A DNA stretch of 64,000 nucleotides from a virus, in IMG/VR virus record IMGVR_UViG_3300044970_001982, positions 32,001 to 96,000 of that record, one strand, 5' to 3'. The notes under the pieces are model-generated. The model had not been told where the DNA came from and made no database searches. It saw only the letters and a program-made list of their open reading frames with translations. The position numbers and the translations under genes were made by a program. Positions 36,101 to 59,195 of this stretch are shown in pieces (the stretch's first letter is position 1; each line of letters opens with the position of its first letter).

Positions 36101-39100
36101 TAAATATTTCTCTTAAATAATTCTAGGTCTACATCAGAGCAATAGTTAGAGACTAGTTGACCCATACTAGTCATTAAGCTACCATTGCCGAATAGTCCAC
36201 TAACGGGATCTCTACTGAAAACATTAGAAATTCTAAATGCTGCGGAGTTAGCTGCTCCTCCAATATTTAGTTCAGAAAGATTATTATAAACTCCGGCAAC
36301 TGTTTGTCTAATTCCATCTGCACGAGCTCTTTCTATATCATTAAGTGGCTCATACAACATTGTGCCGAAGTGTCTAATGCCGAATCTATTTTCAGAAAAT
36401 ACGGTTCCGTTAGTTGCTCTTGCATAGGCTTCCTTAAATCTACTGGCACCCATGCTAAGAAGTCTAACCATAAGATCTCGTGGCTCCGATAGATACATTC
36501 CAGTATCTACTCCACCATCTATTTTTCCAGTATCTCCCTTTTTATTAGTTGAGTTAACTACAGCGCCTAGCTCAATTGCATCTGATTGAGCAGTGATTGT
36601 TACAATCTCTCCCTGCTCAACATTTGTTATCACTCCATTGAAAACGGTTTGCAAAGAATTTGGATTTGCTCCATATCCACATCTTAAGTGAACTCTAACT
36701 CCTGGCTTGAGTCTTATATTGTTGATATCAACAACATAGTTATTTCTCATTCCAGAAATAATATTTCTAGCGACATTTAATGTTCTATCAAGTATTGCAC
36801 TTATGCCATCGGTTAGATTCAAAGGATCATTGCTGAATTCATCATTATTTGCATTAAATATTTCTGTGGATGGCCGAGTTGTTAACTTAGAATACATATT
36901 TGACATTCTTAAAATAAGAGTGTCACCCAAAAGATCTTCAGAACTTACAACAGAAAAATCAACAATAGATTGTAGTCCGTAGAAATTATCAAATAATTTA
37001 ACACCTGCAAACATTCCACCTTCATCTATTAACCACAGCATGTAAGTTGGAAAGGCTCTAAGCATTCTTCCGGAGATGTCGCGATACTGAATATCATTTA
37101 ACATTTTCTCCATATGGCCGTTAAAGTCACCGCTATATGCTTGCTGATATTGATTCAGTGAACTAACTCCAGCTACTCCTGTTAGAGAGTTTGTGCATCC
37201 CCTATCTGGTGTTTGTGTATCTTCTACGAAATTAGATTGTAACTTTATTTTTGTTCCATTAGAACTATTCTCATCATTTTCTATAGTTACATTGGATCCA
37301 TCTATTGTTAGATAAAATCTTCCATTTTCTTTATTGATATATCCAAAATGAGTTCCAAGTGCAGTCTGCATAAAAGCTGGGATTTCATTTGGATTCTGTT
37401 CTTCTGGATCCATTCCGGGAATTATTGTTATTACTTTATGAAACTCTACTTCATCAGGATCAAAGCTAACTTGGGTTTCATTTTCTAAATGAGAATTAGC
37501 TAAAATATATTTTATTAGATCTTCTGTAGATGTATTTGTTACGCCAACGTTTCCCACTAAATATGGAGCACCGTTTATGTCTTCAAATATTTGCAAATCT
37601 TCACTTGAAGAAGCTGATAAAAAGATAAAATCAGTCAGCAGTGCTTGTTTCCTTACTGATGACTGCCCTTCTGTATTTGCAGAAACAACATCCTGAAATA
37701 TGCTTACAAAATTGTGGACACTAATTCCAGTACTCTGAACATAGTCAATCATTTCGTTTATTAACTGCTCATTAGTAAGTGCCCTTTGCTCTCGGGCATC
37801 TTGGTTATTAGCGTTTGTATAGGAATATCTTGTAATAAAATCTAATATTGTATTTCTAACTGATTGTATTTTTCTCTCTAAGTTATCAGATGTCCCCAAT
37901 GCCCAGTCATCTGAATTATCAAATTCAAACTTTTCAGTTAGATCTAATTGTATTTTTGTATTGTTAATAATATCAGAATCAAACATTGAGAAACTTCTAA
38001 AATAGAAGTCTGGATCTAGATTACCTACAACGCCCCCGTCCTTGTCTTTTATGGACAAAGGAAGATCTGGATACGCATTGAAAGATCCCCACATCTGCTT
38101 AATTCTTAAGAATGGATTTCTTTTTGTTCCAAAATGTTCTATTAATTTTGTTTGTTGGTCTGATGATATCTTCTCTCTTTTTTGCTGGAATATATCAAAG
38201 TCAACAAAACTTAACTGAACAGAATAAACATGTGGATAGTTGGGTATTGTATCTACTCTATAGTTAAGAGGTAATACATACTTAACTCCAGCTAAAGCTG
38301 ATATGATATTTTTAATTCCTAGGAAACCTATAACACCGGTAGAGTGCTCTAATCTAGCTAAACCATTTGCATGATCGAAAATATTCTTTATTTTAATTAA
38401 TTCTTTTTCACCAAAAACAGTTAAAGAAATATTTATATATGTATCTTTGCCACCTATAAATTGATAAGTTGGTTCGTCCTGCATTTGAACTTGCAGCTTT
38501 GCCAAATTGTTACCCATAGTAACGCTTACACCATTAACAATGGCCTCTTTAGGGTTTAGGTCAACTCTAGTCATAGGAACTTCCCATTCGTTAAAATGGT
38601 AGTCACCTTCTCTTAATCGAACTGCTTCCATTAAGTTCTTTACGAATCCATCCTTAAAGAATCTTTCATATAGATTTACCTGGAAAGCGTCAGTTATTTG
38701 TTGACGAATTTTATCTTGATCTACTTCAGTAATACCAGTGCTCTTTTGTTGACGAAGAACTTCTTGATTAACCAATTCATCTACTATTGATCCAGAGGCA
38801 GACGACTCATTGTAAATAGAGTACTTAATATAATTAAGACTTGCGTTATCTCCTTCTGGATTTTTAACAATCTCATTATTTCTATAATAAGATTCAGAAC
38901 CAATTGTTGGATATTGATTAAAATGAAGAGATGGAATTGCATTTTCGCCAGGATAATTTCTTAACCAACTTGCTTGTTCTGAATCTATTCTAGTTATATT
39001 TTCTGAAATAAATGATTGTACTTTATACGCATATACTTTTTCTCTAAAGTCGTCAGTACTGGTGCCTGCTGTCATAATGTCAATTGCTTGACGAACAAAC

Positions 39101-41367
39101 TTTTTAGTGGATAATGGATAAGTTGATTCTAACGAAAGAGAAGATATGTCATTAATATCTTTTATTAATGGTGTAAGACTTGTACGATCAATTCCAAAAT
39201 TTTCTAGAATTCTATCCCAAAGACCAGAACTAGTTTCGTTTAATATTTTTTCTTGCTCACTTCTAAAAGAAGTGCTGTCTGGTAGGAATATTTTTGTTTG
39301 TGTCTCTGCTGGAACAAACAAAGTTAGATTGCTTCCATCTTTCCATTGAGTAACTATATTTGTAGACAGTACATCATTATCGTAAGTGTTAACATATTCT
39401 AAGTTTTCTGCCAAGATGCCATCTTCATCAGTTGTATCTACTGGCATTGCGCCGTATGGACTAACCTCATACGTATCCGCTTGATTTGTAGCTTTATCAT
39501 CTGATGTCTTTAATAAAAACGCCTCACTAACATATCTATGCATTTCTCCTGCGGCTTTGCCCATATATTGACGATATTTACCCCAGTGAATAGCCTGATT
39601 AAAATCTTTAATCATTGGCAAGAATGGCTTGTGATTATAACTGTATAATTCTAAGTCAACTACTAATGCAAATGGATAACTTGGTATTGTTGATATAGAC
39701 ATAGCGGATAGTGCAACAGCTGTAATTCCGTGCACAGAGTTTATATACTGATTCTTGATTGGTAGAATTGGAGAATACTTAAACGCTGCAATTAATCCTC
39801 TGAGTGAGGATAAGAACTTATCTATTTTATCTTCTGAGTCTCCACCATTTTTGAAATCTATAGTAAAGTTTTCATTTAAATCTAAGCTAGAAGCGTCGTC
39901 TATTGAGAGACCCCATATTTCTTCATAGTTAGGGAAAAATAATCTTAACGATACCGTGGTTTCTTTGTATCCAGCATTAAACTTTGGAGTGTTTCTTTGA
40001 CGTATTGCACCACCTGTAAGGGATCCAGTTTTAAATGCAGAATTAACACTAACAGAAACTGGTGGAACATAAAAGTTTGCAGCTCCTAGTCTTAAATGAA
40101 AGATATCTGGTTTTCTAGGTGGTATATTTGCCCTGAATGGAAAATCTTGTAAAGCTTTTTTAATTCTTTCTGAAGTTGTATAAAACTTTTCTGTGCCAGC
40201 TAAAGTAAATATTGGCTTACCAGATTGACTAACGCCAAATGCTTTTTCTAGCGAAAGAATAGCGTCTGCCATATTATTAAGAGTATCCTCTTGGCCTCCA
40301 CCCTTTCCGTTATTTGAATAGTCGCCAACAACAGCTATAGCATCAAAAACAAACGTCAGCAATGATGGGAAATAGTGGTTTATTATAGAGAATGAAATAG
40401 GATCTTGCTGAAGACTATAAACAACTTGACTTAGTTGTTGTAACCATGGAGTATCTACCGATGGATCTATAAAATCATTTGCAGATTTTTTAACTGTTGC
40501 TATATTTTGCAATCTTTTCTTAGCGAACTCTCCTATTTCATAGGCATAGGATGCCAGGTAGATTAAACCCGTAGATTCTAACCTGGAATATATACTTCTA
40601 GCTAAAGTTTCTTCTTCTGAAGTATTTAAAAGATTTTTAATATCTATGCCAAAAACCCTCGAAGTTGCTCTTACATTTTTTTCTGTAATTTCATCTTTTC
40701 TTGTCTTTTGGAAAAATTCTTCCATTGGGTCTACTTGAGTTCCGTCGTTGGCGCCAAAATATATTAAACTAAAGAACCTCTGAACTTGGTAAATTGCTTC
40801 ATCTTCTTCATAATTTTTTTCGTCTTCTACTGTTTCTTCGGAAACCAATCTTTCTTCAAATGCAAGAAGCTGCTCTAGCATTTCATCATTAATGCCAACA
40901 TCTATAGATGTTTCATACCATATTGTTATTCTTTCCAATATTTTAGATGCTAAAAATTTAGTTACCTTTTCATCCGCATCCGTATATGCATAGTTTGTTA
41001 CAAAGTGATTTATTATATCTGCTTCAGTAGAAAGACCTGGATTTTGCAAAACCCCAAATCTAGCGCTTATAACACTAAGATATTCATCTAATACTAAAGA
41101 CGTATTTATTGCTGTTCCAGATATAAAAATCGATACAGATTTTTTGTATAAGGCTAAAGAATATTTATCATTAAAGTCTAAATTAATTAACTGTGAACCG
41201 GTTATATCTGGAGTAGATAAATCTACGTTATCGCCAAACTGAAGGAACGCAGATAGGCTAGATGTAGAAACGGACTGATCTGATAGATAGGCACTTAGGG
41301 TAGTATAGTCTAAGTCGCTTTCAGCTATATATGTAAGAGCTTGTCGTGCTATTGAATTTATTGCCAT
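30130..41367 (-). CDS. Giant baseplate hub fusion: tube-like modules, gp27/gp44-like hub, RlpA-like barrel, hydrophobic helices, C-terminal thermonuclease domain
   Basis: GVRVHLRCGYG...VFNGVITNV and GELIIIGNADIRPHDLVYL...FEVEQVVHHF hub motifs; YIAMKWPY...VSPDAAWYLG; FIDGDT...VRFDGINTGE...LNWELVSNNLAQVY SNase motifs. Confidence 0.75.
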   Translation of the reverse strand: MAINSIARQALTYIAESDLDYTTLSAYLSDQSVSTSSLSAFLQFGDNVDLSTPDITGSQLINLDFNDKYSLALYKKSVSIFISGTAINTSLVLDEYLSVISARFGVLQNPGLSTEADIINHFVTNYAYTDADEKVTKFLASKILERITIWYETSIDVGINDEMLEQLLAFEERLVSEETVEDEKNYEEDEAIYQVQRFFSLIYFGANDGTQVDPMEEFFQKTRKDEITEKNVRATSRVFGIDIKNLLNTSEEETLARSIYSRLESTGLIYLASYAYEIGEFAKKRLQNIATVKKSANDFIDPSVDTPWLQQLSQVVYSLQQDPISFSIINHYFPSLLTFVFDAIAVVGDYSNNGKGGGQEDTLNNMADAILSLEKAFGVSQSGKPIFTLAGTEKFYTTSERIKKALQDFPFRANIPPRKPDIFHLRLGAANFYVPPVSVSVNSAFKTGSLTGGAIRQRNTPKFNAGYKETTVSLRLFFPNYEEIWGLSIDDASSLDLNENFTIDFKNGGDSEDKIDKFLSSLRGLIAAFKYSPILPIKNQYINSVHGITAVALSAMSISTIPSYPFALVVDLELYSYNHKPFLPMIKDFNQAIHWGKYRQYMGKAAGEMHRYVSEAFLLKTSDDKATNQADTYEVSPYGAMPVDTTDEDGILAENLEYVNTYDNDVLSTNIVTQWKDGSNLTLFVPAETQTKIFLPDSTSFRSEQEKILNETSSGLWDRILENFGIDRTSLTPLIKDINDISSLSLESTYPLSTKKFVRQAIDIMTAGTSTDDFREKVYAYKVQSFISENITRIDSEQASWLRNYPGENAIPSLHFNQYPTIGSESYYRNNEIVKNPEGDNASLNYIKYSIYNESSASGSIVDELVNQEVLRQQKSTGITEVDQDKIRQQITDAFQVNLYERFFKDGFVKNLMEAVRLREGDYHFNEWEVPMTRVDLNPKEAIVNGVSVTMGNNLAKLQVQMQDEPTYQFIGGKDTYINISLTVFGEKELIKIKNIFDHANGLARLEHSTGVIGFLGIKNIISALAGVKYVLPLNYRVDTIPNYPHVYSVQLSFVDFDIFQQKREKISSDQQTKLIEHFGTKRNPFLRIKQMWGSFNAYPDLPLSIKDKDGGVVGNLDPDFYFRSFSMFDSDIINNTKIQLDLTEKFEFDNSDDWALGTSDNLERKIQSVRNTILDFITRYSYTNANNQDAREQRALTNEQLINEMIDYVQSTGISVHNFVSIFQDVVSANTEGQSSVRKQALLTDFIFLSASSSEDLQIFEDINGAPYLVGNVGVTNTSTEDLIKYILANSHLENETQVSFDPDEVEFHKVITIIPGMDPEEQNPNEIPAFMQTALGTHFGYINKENGRFYLTIDGSNVTIENDENSSNGTKIKLQSNFVEDTQTPDRGCTNSLTGVAGVSSLNQYQQAYSGDFNGHMEKMLNDIQYRDISGRMLRAFPTYMLWLIDEGGMFAGVKLFDNFYGLQSIVDFSVVSSEDLLGDTLILRMSNMYSKLTTRPSTEIFNANNDEFSNDPLNLTDGISAILDRTLNVARNIISGMRNNYVVDINNIRLKPGVRVHLRCGYGANPNSLQTVFNGVITNVEQGEIVTITAQSDAIELGAVVNSTNKKGDTGKIDGGVDTGMYLSEPRDLMVRLLSMGASRFKEAYARATNGTVFSENRFGIRHFGTMLYEPLNDIERARADGIRQTVAGVYNNLSELNIGGAANSAAFRISNVFSRDPVSGLFGNGSLMTSMGQLVSNYCSDVDLELFKRNIYPGNGTGFAQFLGGDLDDGWSTASSFSQDSTDSLRLAGQRYIESATDRSWNRLIVEAELGSTASTQTIENLVEDNKLVSAEGRAGLVAGVLKGAATIGLAALNPVAGAVAGAGLFGLLRGRGGNNLFRTMGIISPNADDDLQGFDEVSFRAQTYMRTVWDLFQTCARLLPNYIVAVRPFEDRSTIFYGKPHWLYTSGVVPVTTGFPSDEKAAQLNLPGYPKIVQPNNDIENIINQVSSQTNSLADYEAFKRSTELSDVISDLVQDQVNSRGIYAPTASVNGRLINFNSNLASSYSERNENGVYNVVCKLPVNVGKVRMGFHLPVGDPTKTFADRGNDNAQGHAQIDNLPIRFRYPFYTVNENVILNKYSTEIRDGGLLEGTYIDLRADTQGFPVSLKVGSVEIATDDLIDRYVEDGDTVKTGVSGGLEFTKGILALMQEEINFIKENSITIIPSSEITYELDRPLGLASLTDQLNLGEQSLFGEINIVRMPLPSVSIFASGGENDIGALTVTTIDAAENADDYSFEYELNEQISYQEWGSPKGLLEEQFYIAMKWPYKPGSSDKLIQGESLEKFKEQYGFVNLYGTAEDYKNRKVLVFSPLTQRAVVCAPAYFMWGEDSDEDVAAVVSPDAAWYLGSLVSSLVDKVPDELKNNLPNWASIGSTESEDVSINFKHSGGDSRNPLYTLEESSGIAIQPRLVDCFFAFVPDDVPVGVVSSELAPVKRFLVGDDKAVNEEYIIGFGNYTATNGETLTAQRKQLTGSADSLERQLAESSGIFAEWSASNASISDIDYTYGGNVLKSGDDLGYFEAILDITKISNDTDVLSRSTLYDRLDGELYTTGDDDTGSGRVGFAPVYSMMDSVSVEARSFYDENFDPNVSVIAGNGRTLSQANDIWDQFRFGYHTYESVKNIFAKTYGLDPDDTTEFPEEFKRILDKTNSKIFSNFSDNTVDVPGLENVGNIENTGVDELVILLGADFFTDSNRQGTQQGTSQLEARKQTIEFIRTNYIDATSQGISGDAGVIEYFNNVISKSLDNIRVNFFENQIINNLLQYSIENTDNQSEAIKLSDQIKTPKQLFLLMVGLFRQKLWSTAYGRAWLVLKPDRKKGPFGNGKGSEGSWSFKPVDKVFEAFISPYSQYAKGSEKFLQLLVSTASEGSNSSTWIGGIGEDVSDFYQRNIGPIFTAIGDGLSGLLGMFKLNMMQMGYAISEVGNFGKQAHILNKVLNDSIYYSLGRPGTLLRAVDNPFTREYGEPVLEVRQPFQRLHYVSSFSHIISNQIQENLNNVATVVTAVSDGKHPVTVALDKGAPPERQTEITVETGIYYDNMIGSGFLGVLHPLMHPLETFRGVAKNAQGTPDELSARRIALAHLKESIKDIYGGELIIIGNADIRPHDLVYLSDVYERMYGLFEVEQVVHHFTPEMGYITSITPNALVTVNDPSRWFLSSWLRSWLGLQNIRNDTRFYIDNIMASNTGINVGGDISVDALSDALMPQMMGGIEYTHGSTSLVKDIMANQTALTLPQKAQQLIDANKSGSDTGFKAVAGGLIAGSGLIAAAAGGAAAAIALPIVGQLAWKGWKWIRDNVLDQHGCYIQYLNKNGQPMDAGLSYNQGMVVGRYHSKALLPGLLGARTKVKTPEGNVFIRSDDLLKSLGWQEVEIKDLVRHIDYENAITHARVLQLSGLGPEKADLQPSLFRVIVKVTEFIDGDTFWVQDIISGSTFKVRFDGINTGETNTIRVGGIPNEPGNQDNQTQLTSISTPGGRAKLYTEEKLKNRIFVLRTKISNSATDDVIFEQQFQPGANENTVANYAKDVTASERVLGTIWYYQPESVVQQAEQFVTSCFIKNKEKNIGSVDSINNLICLEFFKGIYEDSPMNVKKLSIYNEIINSKLSYFAPEYLRDNAQTNYGISEDDVVKLYNALVAYRILNATYEKTSEWPTIFWDEYYEDGYPVTLNWELVSNNLAQVYAKQVQIESESVISAEESALMPRRVI

Positions 41368-41372: not shown

Positions 41373-41819
41373 CTACTTAAACATCATGTTATTTCTAATA
41401 ATAGTTTTTAATCTATCGCTGGAAGAATCCTTCATAGTTGAAGAACTGTAGTTATTAATTATACTAGATTTTGTTTCCAAATTAAAGGAATTTTGAATAA
41501 AATTTGCATTTACTCTGTTGCTGACATCTTTTGAATACCTGGCTTTTTGTTGAGATTTATTATCATAGCCAGTACCATTCATTTGTATATAGGTAGAAGA
41601 TGAGTTGTCCATTCCTTCAAATGAACCTTTAAGCTTGTCAGACTTACCTGTAGCTTGTATCTTTTGTCTAGAATCAGAGACTACATTTCTTGCCGGTGAT
41701 TTAGAAGATGATATTTTAGCTGCGTACTTATTGGCAGTGAGAGTTCTATGAGAGGTGTCTTTAGGCTGTTTTCCAGCAGCGCTTAGTGCTTTATTTTGAT
41801 CTTTTACACCTAAAATCAT
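41373..41819 (-). CDS. Basic, K/S-rich low-complexity protein
   Basis: 148 aa ORF with GGA RBS filling the gap between two large genes. Confidence 0.65.
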   Translation of the reverse strand: MILGVKDQNKALSAAGKQPKDTSHRTLTANKYAAKISSSKSPARNVVSDSRQKIQATGKSDKLKGSFEGMDNSSSTYIQMNGTGYDNKSQQKARYSKDVSNRVNANFIQNSFNLETKSSIINNYSSSTMKDSSSDRLKTIIRNNMMFK

Positions 41820-41830: not shown

Positions 41831-44800
41831 CTAAAAAGATCCGGCAATTTCCTGGTACGGATTTGAAGCTACATCAGGGATTCTATTATACATAGTACTG
41901 TTAATATTTCCATTAGTAAGTCCTGAAGCAGCTTGTCTAAAACTTTCTACCTGATCTCTATTTCCATAGAGGGAAACTTTATAATTCATACCTGGATTAT
42001 AGCTTTTTCCTGACATTGCAGCAATTTCTGATAACTTTCTAGGATAGTCTGATTCATATGCAGATCCTCCAGGTAGTAGTGGTGGACCACTTATATCCTC
42101 AGCAGTTCTATCCTTAGACCCTTGATATATAAAACTTGCAGCTACGGCAAGTCCTGTTCCAATAGCAATATTTCTAACAGTGGGCTTAGCTAACTGTTCC
42201 GATAAGTATTCTTTAGTAATCCTTTGGAATCTTGCCTTTTTTGTCGGAGATCTTTCATCTGAAAGAGCTCGAAGAGTATCTGCAACTACGTCTGGTGTAT
42301 CATCAGCGATTTGATCAGCCGACCTTAATACATTCCCTGATGCATTTGATCCATTAACAAAGGCAGCTGCTTTAGAGTCATTTATTTGAGCTTGCTCATA
42401 AACAACCCTTGCCCTAATCGCACTACTAATTTGAACCTCTTGTGCGGTTGCCTCTGCAGCTTCTTTATCTAATAGTAAGCTCTTAATGACATCAGCCCTG
42501 CCATACTGTTCTCCATTTGAGGAGAAAAATCCATCTACAAAATCAAAATCCATAGAGGTATTTAATATGCCGGCTCTTTGTTCTGGGCTAAAAGTTAATG
42601 ATTCAATAAAATCTTTTAATGCAACATTTGAAGTTGCTCGTTGATAATTTCTTCTTTTTTGCGCCATATCTAAGTATCTATGTAGAGTATGTGCCCTTTC
42701 AACACCATCTCCAATCAAAGTTGTGTCTGGTAGTTTTTCTAATAAACCAAGTGGATATTTTCTTTGAGAAGAAACATATTCCAAAGAGCTAATTAATTCA
42801 TAGCCACTTATGCCCATGGTCCTACTTACATCTTCCATGTCTGCAAGAAGTCTGTCACCAAGTTGGAACTTTAAATTTTCCATACGATACTTGGCCATTT
42901 CTTCTAAGTTTGCATCACCTTGTTGATCCATTATTTCTTTTATAGAGGAAATAATTTGACTATTGCGATCTAAGATATTTTCTGCAGCTATTCTAGACTC
43001 TCTAGTAATATCTGCTGCTAATAGTTGTTCTTGTGATGCGCTTCTTGTCGAATATAGCTTAAATAGTGCGCTACTGTATCTTTCTGATATGTTTGCTGCT
43101 GCTTCCATTTCTGATAGTTTTCCAACACCTATAAATCCTCTTGATCTTAGTAGCTTCTCAACTTCTTCGTGACCACCAGCAACTGCGTCATTAAACTGCT
43201 TAATATCTTCAGCGTTTGCACCGCCTTCAACCATTCCTTGAGAAATTCCTTCAGCGATTATTGTTAGATCTGATTTACTCAATTTTCCACTGGATAATAG
43301 AACTTCATCAATCTTTGCATCAAAGCCTTGATATTGAGATAGAAAGCCAAATAACTTTCCGTACTGGCGCATTGTTGTTTCTCCAAATTGTCCTAAATTA
43401 AGAGCTTGTTGTCCATATATTCTTTCTAAAGCTGTTTTTGCTATACTTGGATCAGATGCAGCGAGTTCAGAAGTATGCTTTAATATTAAACGTCCAGAGG
43501 TAAACGTTTGAGTCATGTCAATTGCGGTTTCAGCTGGAAGCAAGCCAAGCATTATGTTTTTTTGTTTTAATATTTCCTCTATATTTGCAGGCAGTTTATT
43601 TCCTTTAAACATTTGCTCAAATTCATATAAACCTTGACCAATAACAGTAGACCTATTGACATATACGCCAAGTATATTTTCATTTTCTATTGCAGTTTGA
43701 ACACTTCTCTTTAAGAAATCTTCAGACACTACTTGATTAAGTATCTTGTAGTCTATAGAGCTTACTGCCTTATAGAGTGCTTCGGAATCGCCTGCTTTTG
43801 CAAGATCTTTCATTGACTGTATTTGAGTCGCAGACAAATGTGGAGATAGCTTATTAAATAACTCATCAGCAACTTGCATGGTCTCCACTTCTGCCTTTAA
43901 TCTTTGGAAACCTAATGACATAAGCATTGGGTCTTCAGCACCACGTGCAATTAATTGTGTTGCTGAAAGATTTTCTGATGCCGTTCTTCCAAGTCTTTGA
44001 AGAAAAGCGGCGTCAAATTTTCTTCCTTTATTTTGATATAGTTGATCCCAGACTCTTATAGCAGTTTGTTCTATATTATTCATATCAAACATATCATCTA
44101 TAAAATCTTTACCAGTTAATGCTGTTTTTAAAGTAGATAAATCTGAATCACTACTAGCAACTAACATTTCATCTAATTGACGCATAAATAGTTTATTATT
44201 GCCAAATAATTCCTGATAAGTTTCAAGGTCACTAAATCTAGTTAAGCCTATTAATTCTCCAGCTGCTGTTGGTTGACGAGCCATCGCAGCTGCAAATCTT
44301 CTTTTACCACCTGATTCAAAGGTGCCTAAAATTGGCAAACCCTTGTCGTCAAGGTCGAATCCACCTAGGGCATGGTAAAATCTTCTGATGTCATTTTCAT
44401 GGAATAAAATATTATGATTAGATATTCTAAACTTGGCCATCTCAACATTTGTTCCACCAATGTCAAATGCTTCAGCGGTTCCAGAAAGAATGTTCATATT
44501 ACCCTTAACTCCGGTCATAGCATTAGCTTCTGAGTTAATTGCATATCTATAAACTTCTGGAAGAACTGGAAGTTTCATTCCCTTTCTGCTTACAAATAAT
44601 TCTGAATCATAATATACTTTTAATAAGTTTAAATACTCATTTGAATCTCTAATTGAAACTCCACTTTGATGAAGTTCAAGAACTCTTTTTGCCCAGTCTC
44701 TGTTTAACATCTTACTAAATTGTTGCTCTTCAGGTAAGGCATCTATATCCTGTGAGGAAATTTTTCTAATTGCCTTCATGACATTATGGTCTTCATTAAT

Positions 44801-46480
44801 TCTTCCTCTTGCTAAAAGAGCTTCAAATTCATCAAGAACTCCTTTTCTATATTTTTCTATCATAGCAAGTTCTTCTGGTTCGCCAAAAATAGATTGATGA
44901 AAAGCTGTTAACATTGGATCAGAGTAGACTCTACTTGTAGATTCTGCTGCACCGCTGAAGTTTAGAATTGCAGTACCTGCTGCAATTGATGTATCTCTTT
45001 TCAATCCAGCTACACTTGTTATAATTCCATACTTATCAAAACGATCTAGAAAATCAACAACTTGTGCGGCTGATTTATAGTTAACGTCTCTATTGCCTAT
45101 TCTTACAGAACCACGAACAGTCATTTGAGACATCTGTTCGTTTAACTGAGTTAATTGTCTGTCTATTTCTATTCTTCTAGTTATTGAATCTTCATCAAAT
45201 TTTGTAGCTAAACTACTTTTTTCTTTTCTTAATTGAGCTTTAAGATTATTAATATTTTTTCTATTAATTAAAGAAGAACCGTCATATCCCTTTTCAATTT
45301 CATCAAATAAATTACCAATAATACCTTTTTCTGATGAACTAAATGATTTAGACTCTTTTAATTTCTTCTTTGCTATATCTATTCCATATTCACCGGTTGC
45401 AGCATCTATTTGACCAGAATTTGCTATTTCATTTATAAAAGTTTTTAACCTATTCTGAACATCATCTATGTCCAATAAAGCTTTTCCTTCTGCAGCAAGT
45501 TTGCTATTTTCAACATCTATTAATTCTGATAAAGGTGATTTAATTACAGAAAGAGCATCAGCTTGAGATCTATTTGTTCTTATATATGACATTACGTCGG
45601 CCTGTTTTCCAACAGAAGATAACAATCTAGTATCGTTTTCTTCAAAAGCGTAAGCCATTATTTCGAATACATTATCAACATTTAAAGTAGCGTTTGCTAG
45701 AGCAGTCATTCTACTAACAGAATTTGCTGCGCCAGTTGGGTCTAGGAAATTAAATCCTAAAAATGAATCAATTAAAGATCCAGAAAGAGATACATCTCTA
45801 GGAGACAAAACACCCTTGAGTCGTTTTGGCAATTTTGCAAACAATTTGCTTAGACCTTTGTCACCTTGTGATATAGCCCTAAGTAATTCTTCTTCTTCAA
45901 AAAGCCCTCTTCCAGTATCTTGTAAAACTTCTATCGCTTCAGATGTGCTAAGAACTTTATCTCCCAATATAAAATTAAGAGCCATTCCACCTTCATCTGT
46001 AGGGAAAACGAAACCAGTTCCATTGTCGGTCATGCTTTTTAGGAAGTCACCTATAGATTTACTTCCTTGTCTAGCTTTGTGAATTGCTATCTGAGCACTT
46101 AGTGTTTTGCCTTTATATCTATTATTAGTTTTTAGCGCGCTATTCATTTCTGCGAGAACTTGCTCATAACCCCTAAATGTAGATGGGCTTAGTTCGTCTG
46201 CAAAGTTTATATTTGCTAACTCTGTTATTCCAAAACCAGAAACATACGTTGCAGCTTCGTCTACTGTAGAAAATACTTGTTGTGCCGATATTCCTGGAAT
46301 ACCAGATAGTTTTGGATTAAAATAACTTGCCTTAAATTTTAATCTTCCGTCTTCAACAACTGGTTCTATTAATCTTTTTTGTCCAAAATATGTTTTAGAT
46401 AGCGATTGTTTTGCGATCAACATTTGCCTGTCTATTGACAGGTTATTCAAATAAGATGTAACATCTATTATCGGTTCCAC
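41831..46480 (-). CDS. Putative virion-packaged single-chain double-barrel (DPBB) RNA polymerase, with C-terminal hydrophobic helix
   Basis: Ordered motifs GYDGSSLIN, QMTVRG...YKSAAQVV, GIITSVAGLKR, KLPVLPEVYRYAINSE, NILFH...LGGFDLDDK, AMARQPTAAGEL; coupled to the tape measure gene by a TAG/GTG overlap. Confidence 0.6.
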   Translation of the reverse strand: MEPIIDVTSYLNNLSIDRQMLIAKQSLSKTYFGQKRLIEPVVEDGRLKFKASYFNPKLSGIPGISAQQVFSTVDEAATYVSGFGITELANINFADELSPSTFRGYEQVLAEMNSALKTNNRYKGKTLSAQIAIHKARQGSKSIGDFLKSMTDNGTGFVFPTDEGGMALNFILGDKVLSTSEAIEVLQDTGRGLFEEEELLRAISQGDKGLSKLFAKLPKRLKGVLSPRDVSLSGSLIDSFLGFNFLDPTGAANSVSRMTALANATLNVDNVFEIMAYAFEENDTRLLSSVGKQADVMSYIRTNRSQADALSVIKSPLSELIDVENSKLAAEGKALLDIDDVQNRLKTFINEIANSGQIDAATGEYGIDIAKKKLKESKSFSSSEKGIIGNLFDEIEKGYDGSSLINRKNINNLKAQLRKEKSSLATKFDEDSITRRIEIDRQLTQLNEQMSQMTVRGSVRIGNRDVNYKSAAQVVDFLDRFDKYGIITSVAGLKRDTSIAAGTAILNFSGAAESTSRVYSDPMLTAFHQSIFGEPEELAMIEKYRKGVLDEFEALLARGRINEDHNVMKAIRKISSQDIDALPEEQQFSKMLNRDWAKRVLELHQSGVSIRDSNEYLNLLKVYYDSELFVSRKGMKLPVLPEVYRYAINSEANAMTGVKGNMNILSGTAEAFDIGGTNVEMAKFRISNHNILFHENDIRRFYHALGGFDLDDKGLPILGTFESGGKRRFAAAMARQPTAAGELIGLTRFSDLETYQELFGNNKLFMRQLDEMLVASSDSDLSTLKTALTGKDFIDDMFDMNNIEQTAIRVWDQLYQNKGRKFDAAFLQRLGRTASENLSATQLIARGAEDPMLMSLGFQRLKAEVETMQVADELFNKLSPHLSATQIQSMKDLAKAGDSEALYKAVSSIDYKILNQVVSEDFLKRSVQTAIENENILGVYVNRSTVIGQGLYEFEQMFKGNKLPANIEEILKQKNIMLGLLPAETAIDMTQTFTSGRLILKHTSELAASDPSIAKTALERIYGQQALNLGQFGETTMRQYGKLFGFLSQYQGFDAKIDEVLLSSGKLSKSDLTIIAEGISQGMVEGGANAEDIKQFNDAVAGGHEEVEKLLRSRGFIGVGKLSEMEAAANISERYSSALFKLYSTRSASQEQLLAADITRESRIAAENILDRNSQIISSIKEIMDQQGDANLEEMAKYRMENLKFQLGDRLLADMEDVSRTMGISGYELISSLEYVSSQRKYPLGLLEKLPDTTLIGDGVERAHTLHRYLDMAQKRRNYQRATSNVALKDFIESLTFSPEQRAGILNTSMDFDFVDGFFSSNGEQYGRADVIKSLLLDKEAAEATAQEVQISSAIRARVVYEQAQINDSKAAAFVNGSNASGNVLRSADQIADDTPDVVADTLRALSDERSPTKKARFQRITKEYLSEQLAKPTVRNIAIGTGLAVAASFIYQGSKDRTAEDISGPPLLPGGSAYESDYPRKLSEIAAMSGKSYNPGMNYKVSLYGNRDQVESFRQAASGLTNGNINSTMYNRIPDVASNPYQEIAGSF

Positions 46481-49400
46481 TATCTAACACCTGCGCTTAT
46501 ATCAATTTGCTGAGAACCAAAAGGATTCATTACTGGAGTAACTGTTCCTGTTACGCCCATCCCATTCATTAGCGACCTTAACTGATAGGCTATGTCAGCC
46601 CCAGAATTGGATTGTCCAAATTTTGGATAACTTGGGTTTGTAAGATTTGCTTCTTGTATCTGTTGTGGATAGTAACCCATTTGCGACATTTGTAGACCCA
46701 TTGATTGACCCATCTTAATTTTTACTTGATCCATATTGGTATTTGGGTGCCAACCCTCCCAATGTTCAGCAGGTAGTTCGTGTCTGCTAAAGTAATCCAC
46801 TAAGTCTGGTCTACGTTCTACATTCATTCCCCAAGCAGCCTGATATATTCTTCTTTCTAGTCTCCCGGCTGTAGAAAGTATTTGTTGACGTTCTTCAACC
46901 GGAGCATTTATCATCGCTTTAAAGTGTTCTCTTTTTCTTTTTGGAATAGCTAAAGATAAACTTTCTATATCAGTTCCATATTTACCGGAATTAATATCTT
47001 CTATAGGAGCTCCATACATTGTTCTTTTTGCTGCAGATCTAAATTGGAAAGCTGCGCCTCTGTCGCCAGAAGCCTCTGCCATATTTGCCAACCTAGTATT
47101 CTTTACATATGTTAATATGTCTGCATACTCTTCTAGTGCTAGTTCCTTTTTTCTAGTTTCTGGAATAAATTTTTCTCCAGTTATTGCTTCTTTAGCTTGA
47201 TTAAAAGAAGAAACAACTAAACCTGTAATTGCTCCTACTGCAGATGAGATTAACTTTCCTTTTGCAGTTTTGCCAAAAAATGTTCCCGTAACTGCTAAAG
47301 CAGAGGCTGCTGCTAATGGATTTCTATTTGCAGCTTTGTTGATCATTGGTTCTATGAAGCTTTCTACTGGCCTTTGCCATTCTGGGAAAGTTGCCCCATA
47401 AACATTGTTTCTTTCCCAATCCTCAACAGCAGTAGTTTTGTTTAAAAATTTTCTATTTATAAAAGTATCTCTGTGAGCTATATATTCGGCTGCTCTTCCA
47501 AGCGCATATGGCAGTGGATGAGACCCTGCCTCTTGGGCTGATTGATATCTATATTTATAATCTGTAAATTGACGTTTCTGCTGTGCTGCCAATGTTCTTT
47601 CCCTAAGATCTTGAACATATATACGATCAGCAGGGTCATTAACCATCGTGTCAATTTTTTTATCTAAAGCTCTATACTGCCTAGAGTAAGGAGCAACATC
47701 TCCTAATATTTTATATTGATCCAATAGCCCGTATCTACCAGTTTCATCAGACCTAAGTCTATTTAATCTTTCGTACGCAACTCCGGGTAGTCTTAGTTCG
47801 CCTTCTTGAACTTTGGCAAATGGGTCACCGGTCGTAAAGTCTGTAAAATACTCAGGTCCTGGCAAGAATGGATATTGTTGTCCCATAAGATTTCTTATTG
47901 GATTAATGTAATTAACGTCTGTTCTTTCTTTCGGTATGAATCTTCTTGTTACTTCAGAAAATTCTAAAGACCCTACTTGAGAACCAGACATAAGTGGGAT
48001 ATCTCCCAATCCACCAAGATTAAGATCCCAAAATTGACGACTTGTACCATAAGCTTTAGATGCTGCCTGCAAAACAGATCTTTGTGGAGCAAAATCTGAT
48101 TGTCCATATCCAAAATTTTCACGCAAAGTACCTATTCCGAAACCATAAATACCTAGCATTTCTTGAGTTCTATAGCCTAGCTCCTGTGACTGAACCTGAA
48201 CATTTCCAACACTTAGAGGAGCTCCTGCTGGTATTATTCTTTGTGGCATTACGCCAGATACCTTGCTTGGACCATAGGCCATCTGCAAATATTGGTTATT
48301 AATACTTGATATTGTATTTCTTGTATCTGCTTGAGCCGTATTTAAGGCCCCAGCTCGTCCTGCTAACATTGCATTTGTAGATGCTTGCATTCCGCCAGCT
48401 CCACTAGATGATACTCCTCCGACTGGGATTGGCATTCCTGATCCAAGTGGTCCTCCTGGAACTGATCCCTGAGTCATTCCACCAGATATATAGGCTGCTG
48501 CATTATATGCTCCGGACTGGCCAGCTGGAGCATAATTAGCTAATCCGGCTGCTAACTCTCTTTCGTGCATTAGGGTTTCTGGTTTTAGAATTCTTCCAAC
48601 TGTTGCATTTAGGGCCGGGACTAGAGGTCCAAATGGACCACTAAAGTATTCTCCAGTTACAGGGTATGGTCTATCGACAAAGTGTTTTCTTTCAAATCTA
48701 TAAGGATCAAATGGTCTAAGTGGAGATATGTCAGTATAAAATAAAGCTTTTTCTATTGGGCTTCCATATGTATCTGAGGTAAACATTGCCCCAGCTTCTA
48801 TCTTTCTATAGATGCTCGGACGATAATACATAATCTTTCCGCCCATAAATGGCGTATTACCCAATGGCCAGAAACGTCCTTGGCGAATAGCTACTTCACC
48901 TTCAAATAATTGTTCTTTTTTCTCTTGAAAATTCATTCCACCAGGAGTTATTCCAGCCCCAAGTGCATGTAGATTTCCGGCTACTTTAGCTGCACCACCG
49001 ATAAAGAATGGAGAGTATACTCTTTCTCCCCTTTCATCTTTTTCATTAACCATTCCGCCAATAGTTCTATCTACTGTCATTATTCCTGTTCCGGCGGCGT
49101 ATATTGGAAGAACTCTTTTTCCAACCATGCCAGAAGCAAATAGACTTAATGGAGATGAGTATTTATTTACATCAAGCTGCAGTCCAAGTGTACCAAAATA
49201 TTTATTTAATCTTTCCACTCCATGAGAGATAGCTGCTGATGCACTTGAATAACCTTGGGTATTATTAAATGTGTTTATGCCTAGAACACTCTTTATTGCT
49301 GCAAAAGGGTCTCTACCAAAAACAGTGCCAAACGTAGGCGTTAATAACACGTCTGCGCCGGGTCCTCTTGTAGAGCCTAAGGCATCTGAAGCAAAGTCTG

Positions 49401-52400
49401 ACATTGAATATGGCGCTGTGCTGAGCTTTGGATATAAGAATTGCTTGAATAAGCCAGACTTTCCAATTTCACCTATTCTAGCTGTCGTTCCTTTGACGTA
49501 TGGATCCAAAAGTTTTTCGACACCAGATACACCCTTTTCTGCGTTACCTCTTATTATAGAAGCTGCTTCTCTTACAGAGCCTCTTTGTACTGCCAGGTTA
49601 CTAAGGTTGCTTCTATTGGCCCTGAATGAACTTAGGTTTAGCAAGGTAGAAAAGGCCGCAGCTTGTGCTTCCGCTAATTGACCAGCTGGTAATTGTCCGG
49701 CCATTTCTGATATTGCCTGGTTAATCTGTATAAATGCATTTCCATAAGATCTACCAGTTGCACCTGCCGCCCCTTGTGCAAGTAGTTCATCTCTTTGTAT
49801 TAAGTATCTAAATATCTCATTTTTTAACTGATCTTCTCTAGTTAAAATAGTCGGGCTTTTTGCTCTAATATGCGAACCAGACATCAAGTCTGCTTCTTCT
49901 AGCATCTTTCTGATTCTACTACCCATCATGTAGAAGGTGTCGGTATCAAAGCCTCTACTTCTTAATTGTGCTGCGTCGTCTGTAGATCTAGCCAGAATTC
50001 TTTGAGCAAACGCTATGGTATCTTGAACATTATTTAATTCTGAAGTTCTTTGACCATAAAATGTGCCTACTCCACGATCCTCTATTGACTTCATTACTTT
50101 TCTCGGCATTGCTGTGCCAAAAGTGGACTTTCTAAATCTTTCAAAAGCCCTTAAAAATTCTCCCTCAGAAATCATTTCTGCGCCAGAATCATCAACTATT
50201 CTTACAGCGCTACTTGCTTCAGCTCCAACATCTAATTTGTAGTTTTTTCCTTTTACGTTTACTGTTTCGCCTTTTAGTATTCTTGCAAAAAAAGCTGGAT
50301 TGTCTACATCTGTTTTTCTTTGGGCAAATCTTTTTAATAGACCTGGTAGTGAATTTGGTTGCTCAAAGTCAATGTCAAATTTTTCTCTAAACTGTAATTC
50401 TTTTTGTGGAGAAACTCTTAGAGCCTTAAATAACTTAGATCTATTTATGGGGTTTCCATTTTCGTCTAATTTAAGAGCGTTTAATTGATTTAGAGATTTC
50501 ACATCTCTTTCTGAGGCTGCATTTCTAGCTTGCCTTGAGAGCATTTCTGAACTAGTTCTTGATAAAGGTCTATAGAATCCTTCTAATTGCCTGGATTGAT
50601 ATTGTCCAGTCATAGCCTCTCTATTAAAGGCCATAACCTGTCCCTTAGTTCTTCCTCCACTAAAGAATAAGTAGAAATCAGCTGCTTGATCAGTTTCACT
50701 TAAAAATGGTTGAGCCACTTTTCCTTGAACAATTTGAAATGGTGCTCGACCAGCCATTTCATCAAAAGAACCTTTGCCCAACATTTGCGCTGGGTTAAAG
50801 TTAAGAATAGGAATTTTCAAATCTCTTGCAAAGAAATTTCCTACATTACTTATGGATTGTCTTATTCCAGAAAAGTCTAATACATTTCCGGACCTAGTAA
50901 CATAGGTGTCTCTTAATACTGAAACGCTAGCAGAAGTTGTTGTTGGATCTTGAAGTGCTACTCTTTTTCCAATATCTCTAATTATATTTTGACTATCGTC
51001 TGTTAAATTGGAGAATATTCCTTTTTCAAATCCCTCGTCTAATGTCATTGGCCTAAGGCCAAGGATGTTATACCCTCCAGCAAATATGCCTGAGCTTATT
51101 TGTTTTTCTCTAACTAGAAATGACCTCATCTGAAGTAAGTTGGAGGTATCTATTCCTAGACCGGCTAATCGATTTGATAAAACTGCCTCTGAAACGTCTC
51201 TACCATCAGAATGTTTTAGCTGAACACCCATTCTTTGAGCTGATCTTTTTATTAAGAAGTCTCTTTTAGCGCTGGTTAAATTATTTAAATCGCTAAAATC
51301 TTCAAAAGATGCTTTTTTAGTTTTTAGTATCTTTGATGCAACTGCGGGAAAACCCTGATCTGACACAGCTGACCAAGCTTTTTCGGCCCTTCTTCTCAAT
51401 TGGGCTTGAAATTCTCTACCTTCAAAAACTCTGGTAGCGTCATCAATGGATGATCTTAGGGCATCAGTAGTTAAGAATCCTCCTGGAATATTTGTGTTTG
51501 CAGTACCAGAGAATCTTGTTAATATTTCTTCAAAAGCTTCATCGCCTTCTTTCAATATTTTTGTTTTGCCAATAGTAATTTTTCTACTGACTTCAGTTAC
51601 GCCTCTTTCAACGTGAATCTGATTAACAAAATTATTGGTTAGCTTTTCAAAAGCTTCATCATTTGTTCTTCCTGCATTTTTTAATATTGCTCTTTGCAAT
51701 ACTTCTTTGTAGGCAGATTGTTCTTGCCCTCTAAAAAATTCAGAAGTATAAAAAGATCCAGATCCTACTCCACCACCACCAGTGGACTCTATCTTTTGTG
51801 CCAATCTGGACATTCTATTTCCATATCCAGATTGAATTCTTTTGATAACTGAAGTTAAATCACTAGCGTCTGATATTATTCCCCTGGATGCACCAGAACG
51901 AACCATGGTATCAAATTCAACAGATCTGTTAATTACATCGTAGCCTGCACCGACTTTTCTAAATTCATTTATACCCTGACGAACAGAAGATCCTAGACCC
52001 CTTAGTCCGGGAAGTAGATCTATATATCCAAAGCTCCCATCTGCTCCATCACCAAATGCTAATCTTCTACCAAATGTAGCTGCTCTTTTTAAGGTGTTTT
52101 GTCCTGATGAGGCGGCCCATGCCTCTCTAGCTCTAGTATTTCTTGCTGCTGATAATATAGCAGGTAAGTTTGGCCTGTCTGCGTAGTATTGCTTAGTAGC
52201 TGCCTGTATGCCACCAGAGGTTTGTGCAGATATTTTTAAAGCTTGATTAGCTATCTTACTAAGATCGTGTCCAACTTCAGATAAAACATCGCTTAAATCT
52301 ACAAACTTTTGTGCTGCTCGTGTCTTAAATGTATTTACACCCATTGACCTGGTAACATCACCCATTGACTGCCTGAAGGTCATTATAGAGTGACGAGCAT

Positions 52401-56119: not shown

Positions 56120-56136
56120 ATTATTCTCCTATAACT

Positions 56137-56171
56137 AAAAAGGTGCACGGAATATACATCCATGCACCTTT
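56137..56171 (-). terminator. Intrinsic terminator after the major tail tube gene
   Basis: Minus strand AAAGGTGCATGGA-tgtatat-TCCGTGCACCTTTTT: long stem plus U-tract. Confidence 0.85.
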
Positions 56172-56191
56172 GTTAGAGAGTGATAAAACTA

Positions 56192-58117: not shown

Positions 58118-58162
58118 GTTGTATTTTATCCTCCAAATTAAAAGACGTATTTGAATCTTTCT

Positions 58163-59194: not shown

Positions 59195-59195
59195 T

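What the first reader, a model, noticed from the sequence alone, without database searches (positions are those of the whole stretch)
41831..46480. Candidate virion RNA polymerase translationally coupled to the tape measure gene
Seen: the 1549-aa ORF carries, in order, GYDGSSLIN (45263-45289), QMTVRG...NYKSAAQVVD (Lys at ~45075), YGIITSVAGLKR (Lys at ~45000), KLPVLPEVYRYAINSE, and NILFH...ALGGFDLDDK (GGFDLDDK at 44342-44365). Known: single-chain double-barrel polymerases (eukaryotic RNAi RdRP QDE-1, SPbeta YonO, crAss-like phi14:2 gp66) have the series DGxGxIS, QIRxGxxKG, SxxK (the two DPBB-B lysines) and VFP...LSGxDLDGD. Thermus phage P23-45 has a virion RNAP fused to its tail tape protein. 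Inference: this is a highly diverged RNAP built into the tail module, packaged in or near the tube and ejected with the tape measure. The core covers only about 350 aa of 1549; the rest is helical.
Basis: partly seen in the sequence, partly recalled or inferred. Interest (0 to 1): 0.9.

Follow-up and report, generated by a model that had tools for sequence, protein, structure and literature searches.

The report
Diverged two-barrel polymerase in phage tail module
A 1549-residue protein in the tail gene block of an uncultured ~200-kb contractile-tailed phage is predicted to carry the two-barrel catalytic core of cellular-type RNA polymerases, with an unusual active-site loop. It is probably a new family of polymerase that the phage injects to start its own transcription.

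Summary
ORF 41831-46480 (-) encodes 1549 aa with every quoted motif at the stated coordinates, and these motifs are the conservation peaks of a large family known only from metagenomes (222 clusters at 50% identity; 173 IMG/VR relatives). In 108 diverse members D400, D709, D711, D712, R735, P737 and E742 never vary; R456, K469 and K494 are 95-99% conserved.

An AlphaFold2 model of residues 392-762 (pLDDT 86.7) matches single-chain two-barrel RNA polymerases and, over long stretches, nothing else: AtRDR2 Z 8.7, QDE-1 Z 7.9-8.0 (about 250 residues), Thermus phage gp62/gp64, crAss-like giant proteins and a phage 'RdRP' in BFVD. These scores are moderate, and no sequence profile method links the families.

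By the alignment ranges, the invariant residues fall on or near QDE-1's catalytic D709, K743/K767, D1007-1011 and trigger-loop V1115-D1116. The acidic loop reads GGFDLD-DK, one residue shorter than the GGADTDGDK of Bacillus phage 0305phi8-36 gp99. The R-x-P 'Pro-gate' lies after this loop, not before it.

The gene order tube, chaperones, 2220-aa protein, this gene, 148-aa gene, hub is conserved in all 67 loci, usually with a 1-nt stop/start overlap. Packaging, ejection and RNA synthesis remain inferred. The same stretch was also noted by another first-stage reader.

The parts
41831..46480 (-). 1549-aa ORF (P0001): candidate virion two-barrel polymerase
   Evidence: family of 56+ homologues and 222 clusters at 50% identity
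46478..46482 (-). TAGTG stop/start overlap with the upstream 2220-aa gene
   Evidence: conserved in relatives
44951..45295 (-). DPBB-B-like barrel (res ~396-510) with a helical-hairpin insert. It carries D400-G401, Q452, R456, K469 and K494.
   Evidence: AF2 secondary structure; conservation; start of the model aligns to QDE-1 702, so D400 falls about on QDE-1 D709
45278..45283 (-). Invariant D400-G401, proposed fourth (DPBB-B) catalytic Asp
   Evidence: D in 108/108 and G in 106/108; compare DGQG in 0305phi8-36 gp99
44597..44914 (-). Helical connector between the barrels (res 523-628)
   Evidence: AF2 helices, model 131-237
44231..44596 (-). DPBB-A-like barrel (res 629-750): beta-beta-alpha-beta / beta-beta-alpha-[Asp loop]-beta, plus an extra hairpin
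   Evidence: secondary structure; VIA ranges end just after the strand that follows the loop
44339..44368 (-). Acidic loop L705-GGFDLDDK-G714; D709, D711 and D712 invariant, K713 in 97/108
   Evidence: one residue shorter than GGADTDGDK (gp99) and GSDFDIDK (gp66)
44255..44278 (-). R735-Q-P737-T-x-x-x-E742: an invariant R-x-P-T motif 23 residues after the acidic loop (relocated Pro-gate?)
   Evidence: R, P and E in 108/108; the canonical position is upstream in QDE-1 (R962-x-P964) and gp99
43652..43672 (-). Conserved L-G-x-Y-x-N-R (res 937-943) in a long helix after barrel A; bridge-helix candidate
   Evidence: G938 and N942 in 30/30; helix in the model
43490..43531 (-). E984-x-A-[IV]-D988...R997: trigger-loop-like element
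   Evidence: D988 in 30/30 and I/V/L987 in 30/30; five QDE-1 chains align up to model 624/625 = QDE-1 1121/1122, which puts I987-D988 on V1115-D1116
41834..42193 (-). Conserved C-terminal module (res ~1430-1549): a hydrophobic helix, then GPPLLPGGSAYE and NGNI..TMYNRIPD..DPY
   Evidence: function unknown, possibly a tail or membrane anchor
46480..53142 (-). Upstream 2220-aa protein (P0198), homologue of 0305phi8-36 gp145 (a virion protein by MS); length-constant family; possible tape measure
41373..41819 (-). 148-aa gene always found downstream
   Evidence: synteny in all loci that reach it
30130..41367 (-). 3745-aa baseplate hub/lysin, homologue of 0305phi8-36 gp147
   Evidence: phrog_20474 at 4e-121; blastp to gp147 at 3e-26

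Best explanation
P0001 is a very diverged single-chain two-barrel (double-psi beta-barrel) nucleotide polymerase of the phage/plasmid/RdRP branch (QDE-1, YonO, crAss gp66, P23-45 gp64/gp96). It is most likely a DNA-dependent RNA polymerase.

Proposed active site: residues ~396-510 form the Lys-bearing barrel (D400, R456, K469, K494) and residues ~629-750 form the metal-binding barrel. The metal loop is a one-residue-shortened D-x-D-D-K (D709, D711, D712). Helices up to about residue 995 supply bridge-helix and trigger-loop-like elements (I987-D988). An invariant R-Q-P-T on an extra hairpin after the acidic loop probably replaces the usual upstream Pro-gate.

Proposed delivery: the gene is made late, translationally coupled to the 2220-aa tail-lumen protein, and lies between the tail chaperones and the baseplate hub. 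It is therefore inferred to be assembled into the tail interior and ejected into the cell ahead of or with the DNA, where it transcribes the first (pre-early) genes independently of host RNAP. It may also help draw in the ~200-kb genome.

Shown here: the motifs, their invariance, the predicted fold, the synteny and the coupling. Inferred: catalysis, RNA as the product, packaging and ejection.
For: Conservation: D400, D709, D711, D712, R735, P737 and E742 are present in 108/108 diverse members; K494 in 107, K469 in 105, R456 in 103.

Models: AF2 core pLDDT 86.7, pTM 0.80; larger model pLDDT 74.

Exhaustive VIA search of 48,161 chains: rank 1 is QDE-1 for both models (Z 7.9, rmsd 4.3 A, 246 aligned; Z 6.9, 336 aligned). 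ZmRDR2 and P74 gp62 are the only other long matches.

Second look: AtRDR2 Z 8.7 (228 aligned), QDE-1 Z 8.0 (~250), T. terrestris QDE-1 Z 7.2 (257), P32 gp64 Z 6.4, gp66 Z 4.0 (344 aligned).

Foldseek ranks the same proteins first in PDB, though weakly (E 0.025-0.1). In BFVD, after three uncharacterised phage proteins, it ranks crAss-like giant proteins (E 3e-3) and a phage 'RNA-dependent RNA polymerase'.

Residue mapping from the alignment ranges and the QDE-1 paper (PMC9508822): D400 about on D709; K469 to K494 is 25 residues against 24 for K743 to K767; the acidic loop lies within 5 residues of D1007-1011; I987-D988 falls on V1115-D1116; D400 to D709 is 309 residues against 298 in QDE-1 and 344 in gp99.

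Loop comparison: GGFDLD-DK against GGADTDGDK (0305phi8-36 gp99, Pfam RdRP) and GSDFDIDK (gp66).

Tail context: the order tube, tube, p323, p180, p209, P2220, P0001, p148, hub is found in all 67 loci. The flanking proteins are homologous to 0305phi8-36 gp145 and gp147; gp145 is annotated as MS-detected in virions. Stop/start overlap is conserved.

Other RNAPs: none was detected in three 92-100% complete relatives. Pfam Rpb1_2 and RdRP gave no hit and their controls rang; the T7-type model gave no hit but its control was silent. There is a single copy of the family per genome.

Precedents: P23-45 gp96 and phi14:2 gp66.
Against: No sequence-based method links the family to any RNAP: Pfam, PHROGs, PDB hmmsearch, and hhalign against gp66 and gp99 all gave nothing.

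All structural scores lie in the range the tool calls 'middling' (Z < 9; Foldseek E > 0.01 against PDB).

The strict DxDxD signature is not met. The canonical R-x-P upstream of the loop is absent.

There is no proteomic, transcriptomic or biochemical evidence, and no cultured relative carries the gene.

The positional counterpart in 0305phi8-36 (gp146, 'hypothetical tape measure') has no such core.
Confidence: 0.6

Rival explanations
1. The protein is a genuine two-barrel descendant, but it is not a transcribing RNAP. It could be an exapted structural or ruler protein of the tail lumen that kept the fold. Or it could be an enzyme with another nucleotidyl-transfer activity, such as priming, DNA synthesis as in PolD, RNA-templated synthesis, or untemplated synthesis.
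For: The acidic loop is non-canonical (DxDD-K) and the Pro-gate, which reads the 2'-OH in QDE-1, is not in its normal place. The gene occupies the slot of 0305phi8-36 gp146, the 'hypothetical tape measure'. About 60% of the protein lies outside the core, and what was modelled of that (res ~760-1010) is helical.
Against: Every residue class needed for two-metal polymerisation is invariant across more than 100 clusters down to ~20% identity. That argues for retained catalysis rather than a relic. A trigger-loop-like [IV]-D, as in the RNA-making QDE-1, is conserved. The closest folds are all RNA polymerases.
Confidence: 0.2
2. The fold match is fortuitous. The protein is an ejected tail or baseplate protein whose conserved acidic loop serves some other role, for example metal or cell-wall binding, or a DPBB-type lytic transglycosylase.
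For: Z-scores of 7-9 are what unrelated models often reach in this search (tool notes). There is no sequence-level support. Tail modules commonly carry lysins.
Against: Only two-barrel polymerases give alignments of 190-340 residues, and they do so in four separate searches over three libraries. All other hits are 45-70-residue helical hairpins. The order and spacing of the invariant Asp/Lys/Asp-loop/[IV]-D match QDE-1. The lysin function is already supplied by the 3745-aa hub.
Confidence: 0.12
3. It is an active RNAP but is not packaged. It would be a late-expressed, non-virion enzyme that transcribes very late genes, and it merely sits in the tail operon.
For: No proteomics are available. 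0305phi8-36 keeps its RdRP-like RNAP (gp99) outside the structural module, and its annotation does not mark it as a virion protein, unlike the MS-detected structural proteins.
Against: Strict synteny and translational coupling inside the tube/chaperone/hub block hold in all 67 loci. There is a conserved C-terminal module behind a hydrophobic helix. An enzyme first made with the tail proteins is of little use unless it is carried to the next cell.
Confidence: 0.08

Closest known systems
Cellular RdRPs of the two-barrel superfamily (Neurospora QDE-1, plant RDR2; Pfam PF05183)
   Same: They are the best structural matches over both barrels, the connector and the helices up to the trigger loop (Z 7-8.7, 230-340 residues). 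They share the order DPBB-B Asp, basic residues, acidic loop, [V/I]-D, with similar spacing.
   Different: Sequence similarity is undetectable. The acidic loop is one residue shorter (DLD-DK against DYDGD). R-x-P lies after the loop, not before it. There is a large helical-hairpin insert in barrel B. The protein is phage tail-encoded and carries about 950 further residues.
YonO-type phage RNAPs, e.g. Bacillus phage 0305phi8-36 gp99 (ABS83659.1)
   Same: Single-chain enzymes with a DG motif, then about 300-345 residues, then GG-x-D-x-D..DK. The host phage is a distant relative by portal (37% identity), gp145 and gp147.
   Different: gp99 is an early-region gene beside the terminal repeat and is not annotated as a virion protein. 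It has the canonical FRSP Pro-gate upstream and DTDGD. hhalign probability is 0.1. Pfam RdRP finds no such gene in this clade.
phi14:2 gp66, virion RNAP of crAss-like phages (PDB 6VR4)
   Same: A giant virion-delivered single-chain two-barrel RNAP encoded among giant structural genes (g067-g066-g065). The loop is followed by Lys (DFDIDK). crAss-like giant proteins follow three uncharacterised phage proteins among the BFVD matches.
   Different: It belongs to a podovirus and is head- or muzzle-packaged, not from a contractile tail module. The structural match is weaker (Z 4.0) and hhalign finds nothing.
Thermus phage P23-45 gp96 (RNAP fused to the tape measure) and gp64/P74 gp62 nvRNAP
   Same: This is the precedent for a two-barrel RNAP travelling through the tail with the tape measure. 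gp62/gp64 are structural matches (Z 5-6.5, ~195-280 residues).
   Different: P23-45 is a siphovirus. Its RNAP is the N-terminus of the 5002-aa TMP and is paired with a paralogous nvRNAP. Here it is a separate 1549-aa protein coupled to a 2220-aa neighbour, with no paralogue in the genome.
N4 vRNAP (gp50)
   Same: It is a functional analogue: a giant virion-carried RNAP injected to transcribe early genes and pull in DNA (established knowledge).
   Different: It has an unrelated T7-like right-hand fold. No PF00940 signal was found here, but that control did not ring.

Membership tests
Two-barrel (DPBB) nucleic-acid polymerase superfamily | Two double-psi beta-barrels juxtaposed in one catalytic core (order B then A in single-chain forms) | tested here: met
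   AF2 pLDDT 86.7. A beta-beta-alpha-beta x2 pattern lies at model 244-332, with a second beta region at 11-118. The only long matches are QDE-1, RDR2, gp62/gp64 and gp66. Z is at most 8.7, so support is moderate.
Two-barrel (DPBB) nucleic-acid polymerase superfamily | DxDxD metal-binding triad in the alpha2-beta6 loop of DPBB-A | tested here: not met
   The loop lies between helix 695-704 and strand 713-723, as expected, but reads D709-L-D711-D712-K. Three invariant Asp are present, yet the spacing is DxDD; only 2 of 108 members have D at 713. It reads as a one-residue deletion of GGADTDGDK/GSDFDIDK.
Two-barrel (DPBB) nucleic-acid polymerase superfamily | Two conserved basic residues in DPBB-B | tested here: met
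   K469 (105/108) and K494 (107/108) sit in the barrel-B region, 25 residues apart; QDE-1 K743 and K767 are 24 apart. R456 is present in 103/108.
Two-barrel (DPBB) nucleic-acid polymerase superfamily | Additional acidic residue of DPBB-B that helps bind metal B (QDE-1 D709) | tested here: met
   D400 is present in 108/108. Model residue 9 aligns at about QDE-1 710, judged from the range start 1 <-> 702.
Two-barrel (DPBB) nucleic-acid polymerase superfamily | R-x-P Pro-gate loop about 35-45 residues upstream of the acidic loop | tested here: not met
   There is no R-x-P at that place. The invariant R735-Q-P737-T lies 23 residues downstream, on an extra hairpin. Whether it reaches the active site could not be measured.
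Two-barrel (DPBB) nucleic-acid polymerase superfamily | Bridge helix and trigger loop after DPBB-A | tested here: inconclusive
   Long helices follow. Alignments to five QDE-1 chains extend to 1121/1122, inside the TL (1102-1136), which places the invariant I987-D988 on V1115-D1116. This part of the model has low confidence (pLDDT 50-70).
Two-barrel (DPBB) nucleic-acid polymerase superfamily | Template-dependent NTP polymerisation | not testable with these tools
   Needs biochemistry.
Virion (injected) phage RNA polymerases | Protein present in the virion and delivered to the cell | not testable with these tools
   Only context is available: a conserved tail-module position, coupling, and neighbours whose 0305phi8-36 homologues include the MS-detected virion protein gp145.
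Pfam RdRP (PF05183) / YonO-like | Match to the family profile | tested here: not met
   There was no hit at E <= 1 in G000-G003, although the control detected B. subtilis. hhalign to gp99 gave probability 0.1.
Tail tape measure protein | Position after the tail chaperones, length constancy, helical ruler | tested here: inconclusive
   P0001 sits where 0305phi8-36 has its putative TMP gp146 but shares no similarity with it. Family lengths vary (about 1430-2100 aa), whereas the upstream P2220 family is constant at 2170-2234 aa.

The most novel reading that the evidence does not exclude
A widespread clade of uncultured ~200-kb myoviruses, with no other detectable RNAP, delivers through its contractile tail a previously unrecognised family of two-barrel RNA polymerase. 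In this family the active site has been rebuilt: the metal loop is shortened to DxDD-K, and the minor-groove-sensing R-x-P Pro-gate has moved from before the catalytic loop to after it. That would be a rearrangement not reported for the RNAP structures compared here.
Probability: 0.35. Interest if true: 0.85.

Novelty: new variant of a known kind. Interest (0 to 1): 0.74.

Why it matters
Injected RNA polymerases let phages start infection independently of, and resistant to, host control. So far only a few solutions are known: N4, phiKZ-like phages, crAss gp66 and P23-45 gp96.

This would add a new, abundant family from jumbo-size contractile-tailed phages (222 clusters at 50% identity). It would show that tail-lumen delivery of a two-barrel RNAP is not a Thermus curiosity.

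It would also offer a natural experiment on how much the universally conserved DxDxD and Pro-gate elements of cellular-type RNAPs can be rearranged. And it would assign a function to one of the giant 'hypothetical' tail genes in these metagenomic phages.

Tried and rejected
Sequence routes that gave nothing:
- Pfam and PHROGs on P0001, and on 30-38 family members.
- phmmer and hmmsearch against PDB sequences.
- tblastn against 50,697 phage records, even at E 5.
- hhalign of the core profile against gp66, gp99, gp145 and gp146.
- ESM Atlas.
- GTDB species genomes: 359 pattern hits, none a relative.

Search for a second RNAP or a sigma factor in complete relatives:
- Pfam Sigma70_r2, Rpb1_2, T7-type RNA_pol and RdRP found nothing. 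The T7-type control was silent, so that result is uninformative.
- PHROG scans of ten large unassigned ORFs of G002 found only tail-fibre-like families.
- A 579-aa ORF with DFDLD proved to carry a JAMM motif.

Other points:
- I considered that F-R685-x-S-x-H is the Pro-gate. I rejected this because it lies in the strand immediately before alpha2, not in the beta2-alpha1 loop.
- I considered a DPBB lytic transglycosylase (MltA/RlpA-like). No such fold appeared among the matches, which is not proof of absence, and the two-barrel architecture with Lys/Asp signatures fits polymerases better.
- A 108-sequence alignment was too large for structure prediction, so a 74-row one was used.
- Residue-level superposition was not possible because model coordinates are not exposed.

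Full report
**Observation.** The minus-strand ORF 41831-46480 encodes 1549 aa. All five quoted motifs are present at the stated coordinates. Its GTG start overlaps the TAG stop of the upstream 2220-aa ORF by one base (TAGTG).

**Genomic setting.** The window is bases 32001-96000 of a 109.1-kb IMG/VR virus record that CheckV rates 52% complete. Relatives reach 194-210 kb, and one has terminal repeats. The genes all lie on the minus strand and form a myovirus late module:
- portal and major capsid protein lie beyond the window;
- two sheath-like and two tube-like proteins, then three small proteins;
- the 2220-aa protein, P0001, a 148-aa protein, and a 3745-aa hub with a lysin region (phrog_20474, 4e-121);
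- a gp6-like baseplate wedge and further giant proteins.

**The family.** P0001 has no Pfam, PHROG, PDB-sequence or cultured-phage match. It does have 56 metagenomic homologues down to about 20% identity, 173 relatives in IMG/VR, and 222 clusters at 50% identity in 1.84 billion representatives. None occurs in 185,579 GTDB species genomes.

In 108 diverse members:
- D400, D709, D711, D712, R735, P737 and E742 are invariant;
- G401, K494, K469, R456, G706, R645, F708 and Q736 are 91-99% conserved.

Further conserved elements are L-G938-x-Y-x-N942-R and E984-x-A-[IVL]-D988, plus a C-terminal module (GPPLLPGGSAYE...) behind a hydrophobic helix.

**Fold.** AlphaFold2 on residues 370-1010 gave pLDDT 74. 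On residues 392-762, with a 74-row alignment, it gave pLDDT 86.7 and pTM 0.80. The core model shows three parts:
- a beta region carrying D400, R456, K469 and K494, with a helical-hairpin insert;
- a helical connector;
- a clean beta-beta-alpha-beta / beta-beta-alpha-beta unit, in which the GGFDLDDK loop lies between the second helix and the last strand. This is the place of NADFDGD in beta-prime.

Structure searches agree:
- An exhaustive VIA-align search of 48,161 PDB representatives ranked QDE-1 first for both models: Z 6.9 with 336 aligned residues, and Z 7.9, rmsd 4.3 A, 246 aligned. Maize RDR2 and Thermus phage P74-26 gp62 were the only other long alignments. Everything else was a 45-70-residue helical hairpin.
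- Re-alignment of Foldseek's list gave AtRDR2 Z 8.7, QDE-1 Z 8.0, T. terrestris QDE-1 Z 7.2, P32 gp64 Z 6.4 and phi14:2 gp66 Z 4.0.
- Foldseek itself put these proteins on top in PDB, but only at E 0.025-0.1.
- In BFVD, after three uncharacterised phage proteins (E 1e-10 to 1e-7), Foldseek listed crAss-like giant proteins (E 3e-3) and a phage 'RNA-dependent RNA polymerase'.

The scores are moderate. The tool warns that Z 7-8 is common, so the argument rests on the consistency, length and specificity of the matches, not on any single score.

**Residue mapping.** The QDE-1 complex paper (PMC9508822) names these functional residues: D709, Q736/R738, K743 and K767 in barrel 1; the R962-x-P964 Pro-gate; D1007/1009/1011 in barrel 2; and V1115-D1116-K1119 in the trigger loop.

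The alignment ranges are model 1-331 <-> QDE-1 702-1025, and model 20-624 <-> 700-1121 in five chains. From these:
- D400 falls at about 710;
- the acidic loop falls within about 5 residues of the triad;
- I987-D988 falls on 1115-1116.

Spacings also agree. K469 to K494 is 25 residues, against 24 in QDE-1. D400 to D709 is 309 residues, against 298 in QDE-1 and 344 in 0305phi8-36 gp99.

**Departures from the canon.**
- The acidic loop is D-L-D-D-K, not DxDxD. Compared with GGADTDGDK (gp99) and GSDFDIDK (gp66), it reads as loss of the single residue between the second and third Asp, with the following Lys kept. Two of 108 members have Asp at the fifth place.
- No R-x-P precedes the loop. Instead an invariant R-Q-P-T...E sits 23 residues after it, on an additional hairpin. 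This agrees with another first-stage note on this genome. I could not test whether it reaches the active site.

**Context.**
- The block tube, tube, p323, p180, p209, P2220, P0001, p148, hub is conserved in every one of 67 related loci.
- In 28 distinct junctions, 19 keep the 1-nt stop/start overlap and 6 have a gap of 0-2 nt.
- The portal is 37% identical to that of Bacillus phage 0305phi8-36.
- In 0305phi8-36 the order is gp143/144 chaperones, gp145, gp146 ('hypothetical tape measure'), gp147 hub. gp145 and gp146 are annotated as virion proteins by mass spectrometry.
- P2220 is homologous to gp145 (7e-46) and the hub to gp147 (3e-26). P0001 shows no similarity to gp146, which also lacks any acidic triad.

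Which of the two giant proteins is the ruler here is therefore open. The P2220 family has a strikingly constant length (2170-2234 aa), which favours it as the tape measure.

0305phi8-36 instead carries an RdRP-like RNAP (gp99) beside its terminal repeat; its annotation does not mark it as a virion protein. This clade has no PF05183 match, although the control rang on B. subtilis. It also has no multisubunit RNAP domain (control rang), no T7-type RNAP hit (that control did not ring, so the result is uninformative), no Pfam sigma region 2 and no paralogue of P0001.

**Conclusion.** The most economical reading is a new, highly diverged family of single-chain two-barrel polymerase built into the tail-lumen/baseplate gene block. 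It is probably injected to begin transcription, as in P23-45 and crAss-like phages. I put this at about 0.6. The main alternatives are a two-barrel descendant with another role (0.2), a spurious fold match (0.12), and an active but unpackaged enzyme (0.08). I found no paper describing this family.

Noticed in passing
L064:2500-22321 (complete DTR relative, 209.7 kb): All giant tail genes (homologues of P2220, P0001 and the hub) are broken into 2-4 ORFs each. This could be frameshift-prone assembly or genuine splits. The polymerase core sits in a 616-628-aa piece.
   Followed up: partly
window 46480-53142 and the homologous ORFs in L005-L071: The 2220-aa protein family keeps a nearly constant length (2170-2234 aa) down to about 25% identity, and in most junctions it ends with A-G-V-R before the overlapping stop. 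This is ruler-like behaviour. It is homologous to 0305phi8-36 gp145, not to its annotated tape measure gp146.
   Followed up: partly
window 41834-42193: The C-terminal ~120 residues of P0001 are the second most conserved part (hydrophobic helix IAIGTGLAVAASFIY, then GPPLLPGGSAYE, NGNI..TMYNRIPD..DPY). No family match was found. It could be a tail or membrane anchor or a processing site.
   Followed up: no
window 45782-45835 (res 216-233): A conserved basic N-terminal motif, K-x-x-K-R-L-K-G-x-x-S-x-R-D-[IV]-S, lies upstream of the polymerase core. Function unknown.
   Followed up: no
window 30130-41367: The 3745-aa hub protein matches phrog_20474 ('endolysin', 4e-121) and several regions of 0305phi8-36 gp147. 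Another first-stage note proposes a C-terminal thermonuclease domain, which I did not check.
   Followed up: partly
G002:C1:187268-189007 (+): A 579-aa early-strand ORF carries a JAMM/MPN motif (HSHPEMSAYASGTDH) and Cys-rich C-terminal repeats. Its DFDLD is not a polymerase motif.
   Followed up: partly
BFVD entries A0A6J5NTF7, A0A6J5M9G6, A0A6J5MEC6: Three uncharacterised proteins of uncultured Caudovirales (851-1141 aa, 13-16% identity) are strong structural matches to the core (E 1e-10 to 1e-7). They are probably remote or shorter members of the same family.
   Followed up: no
window 55358-56854 and 56882-60815: There are duplicated tube-like (220 and 253 aa) and sheath-like (411 and 539 aa) genes, as in 0305phi8-36 (gp137/gp139 sheath, gp140/gp141 tube).
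   Followed up: no
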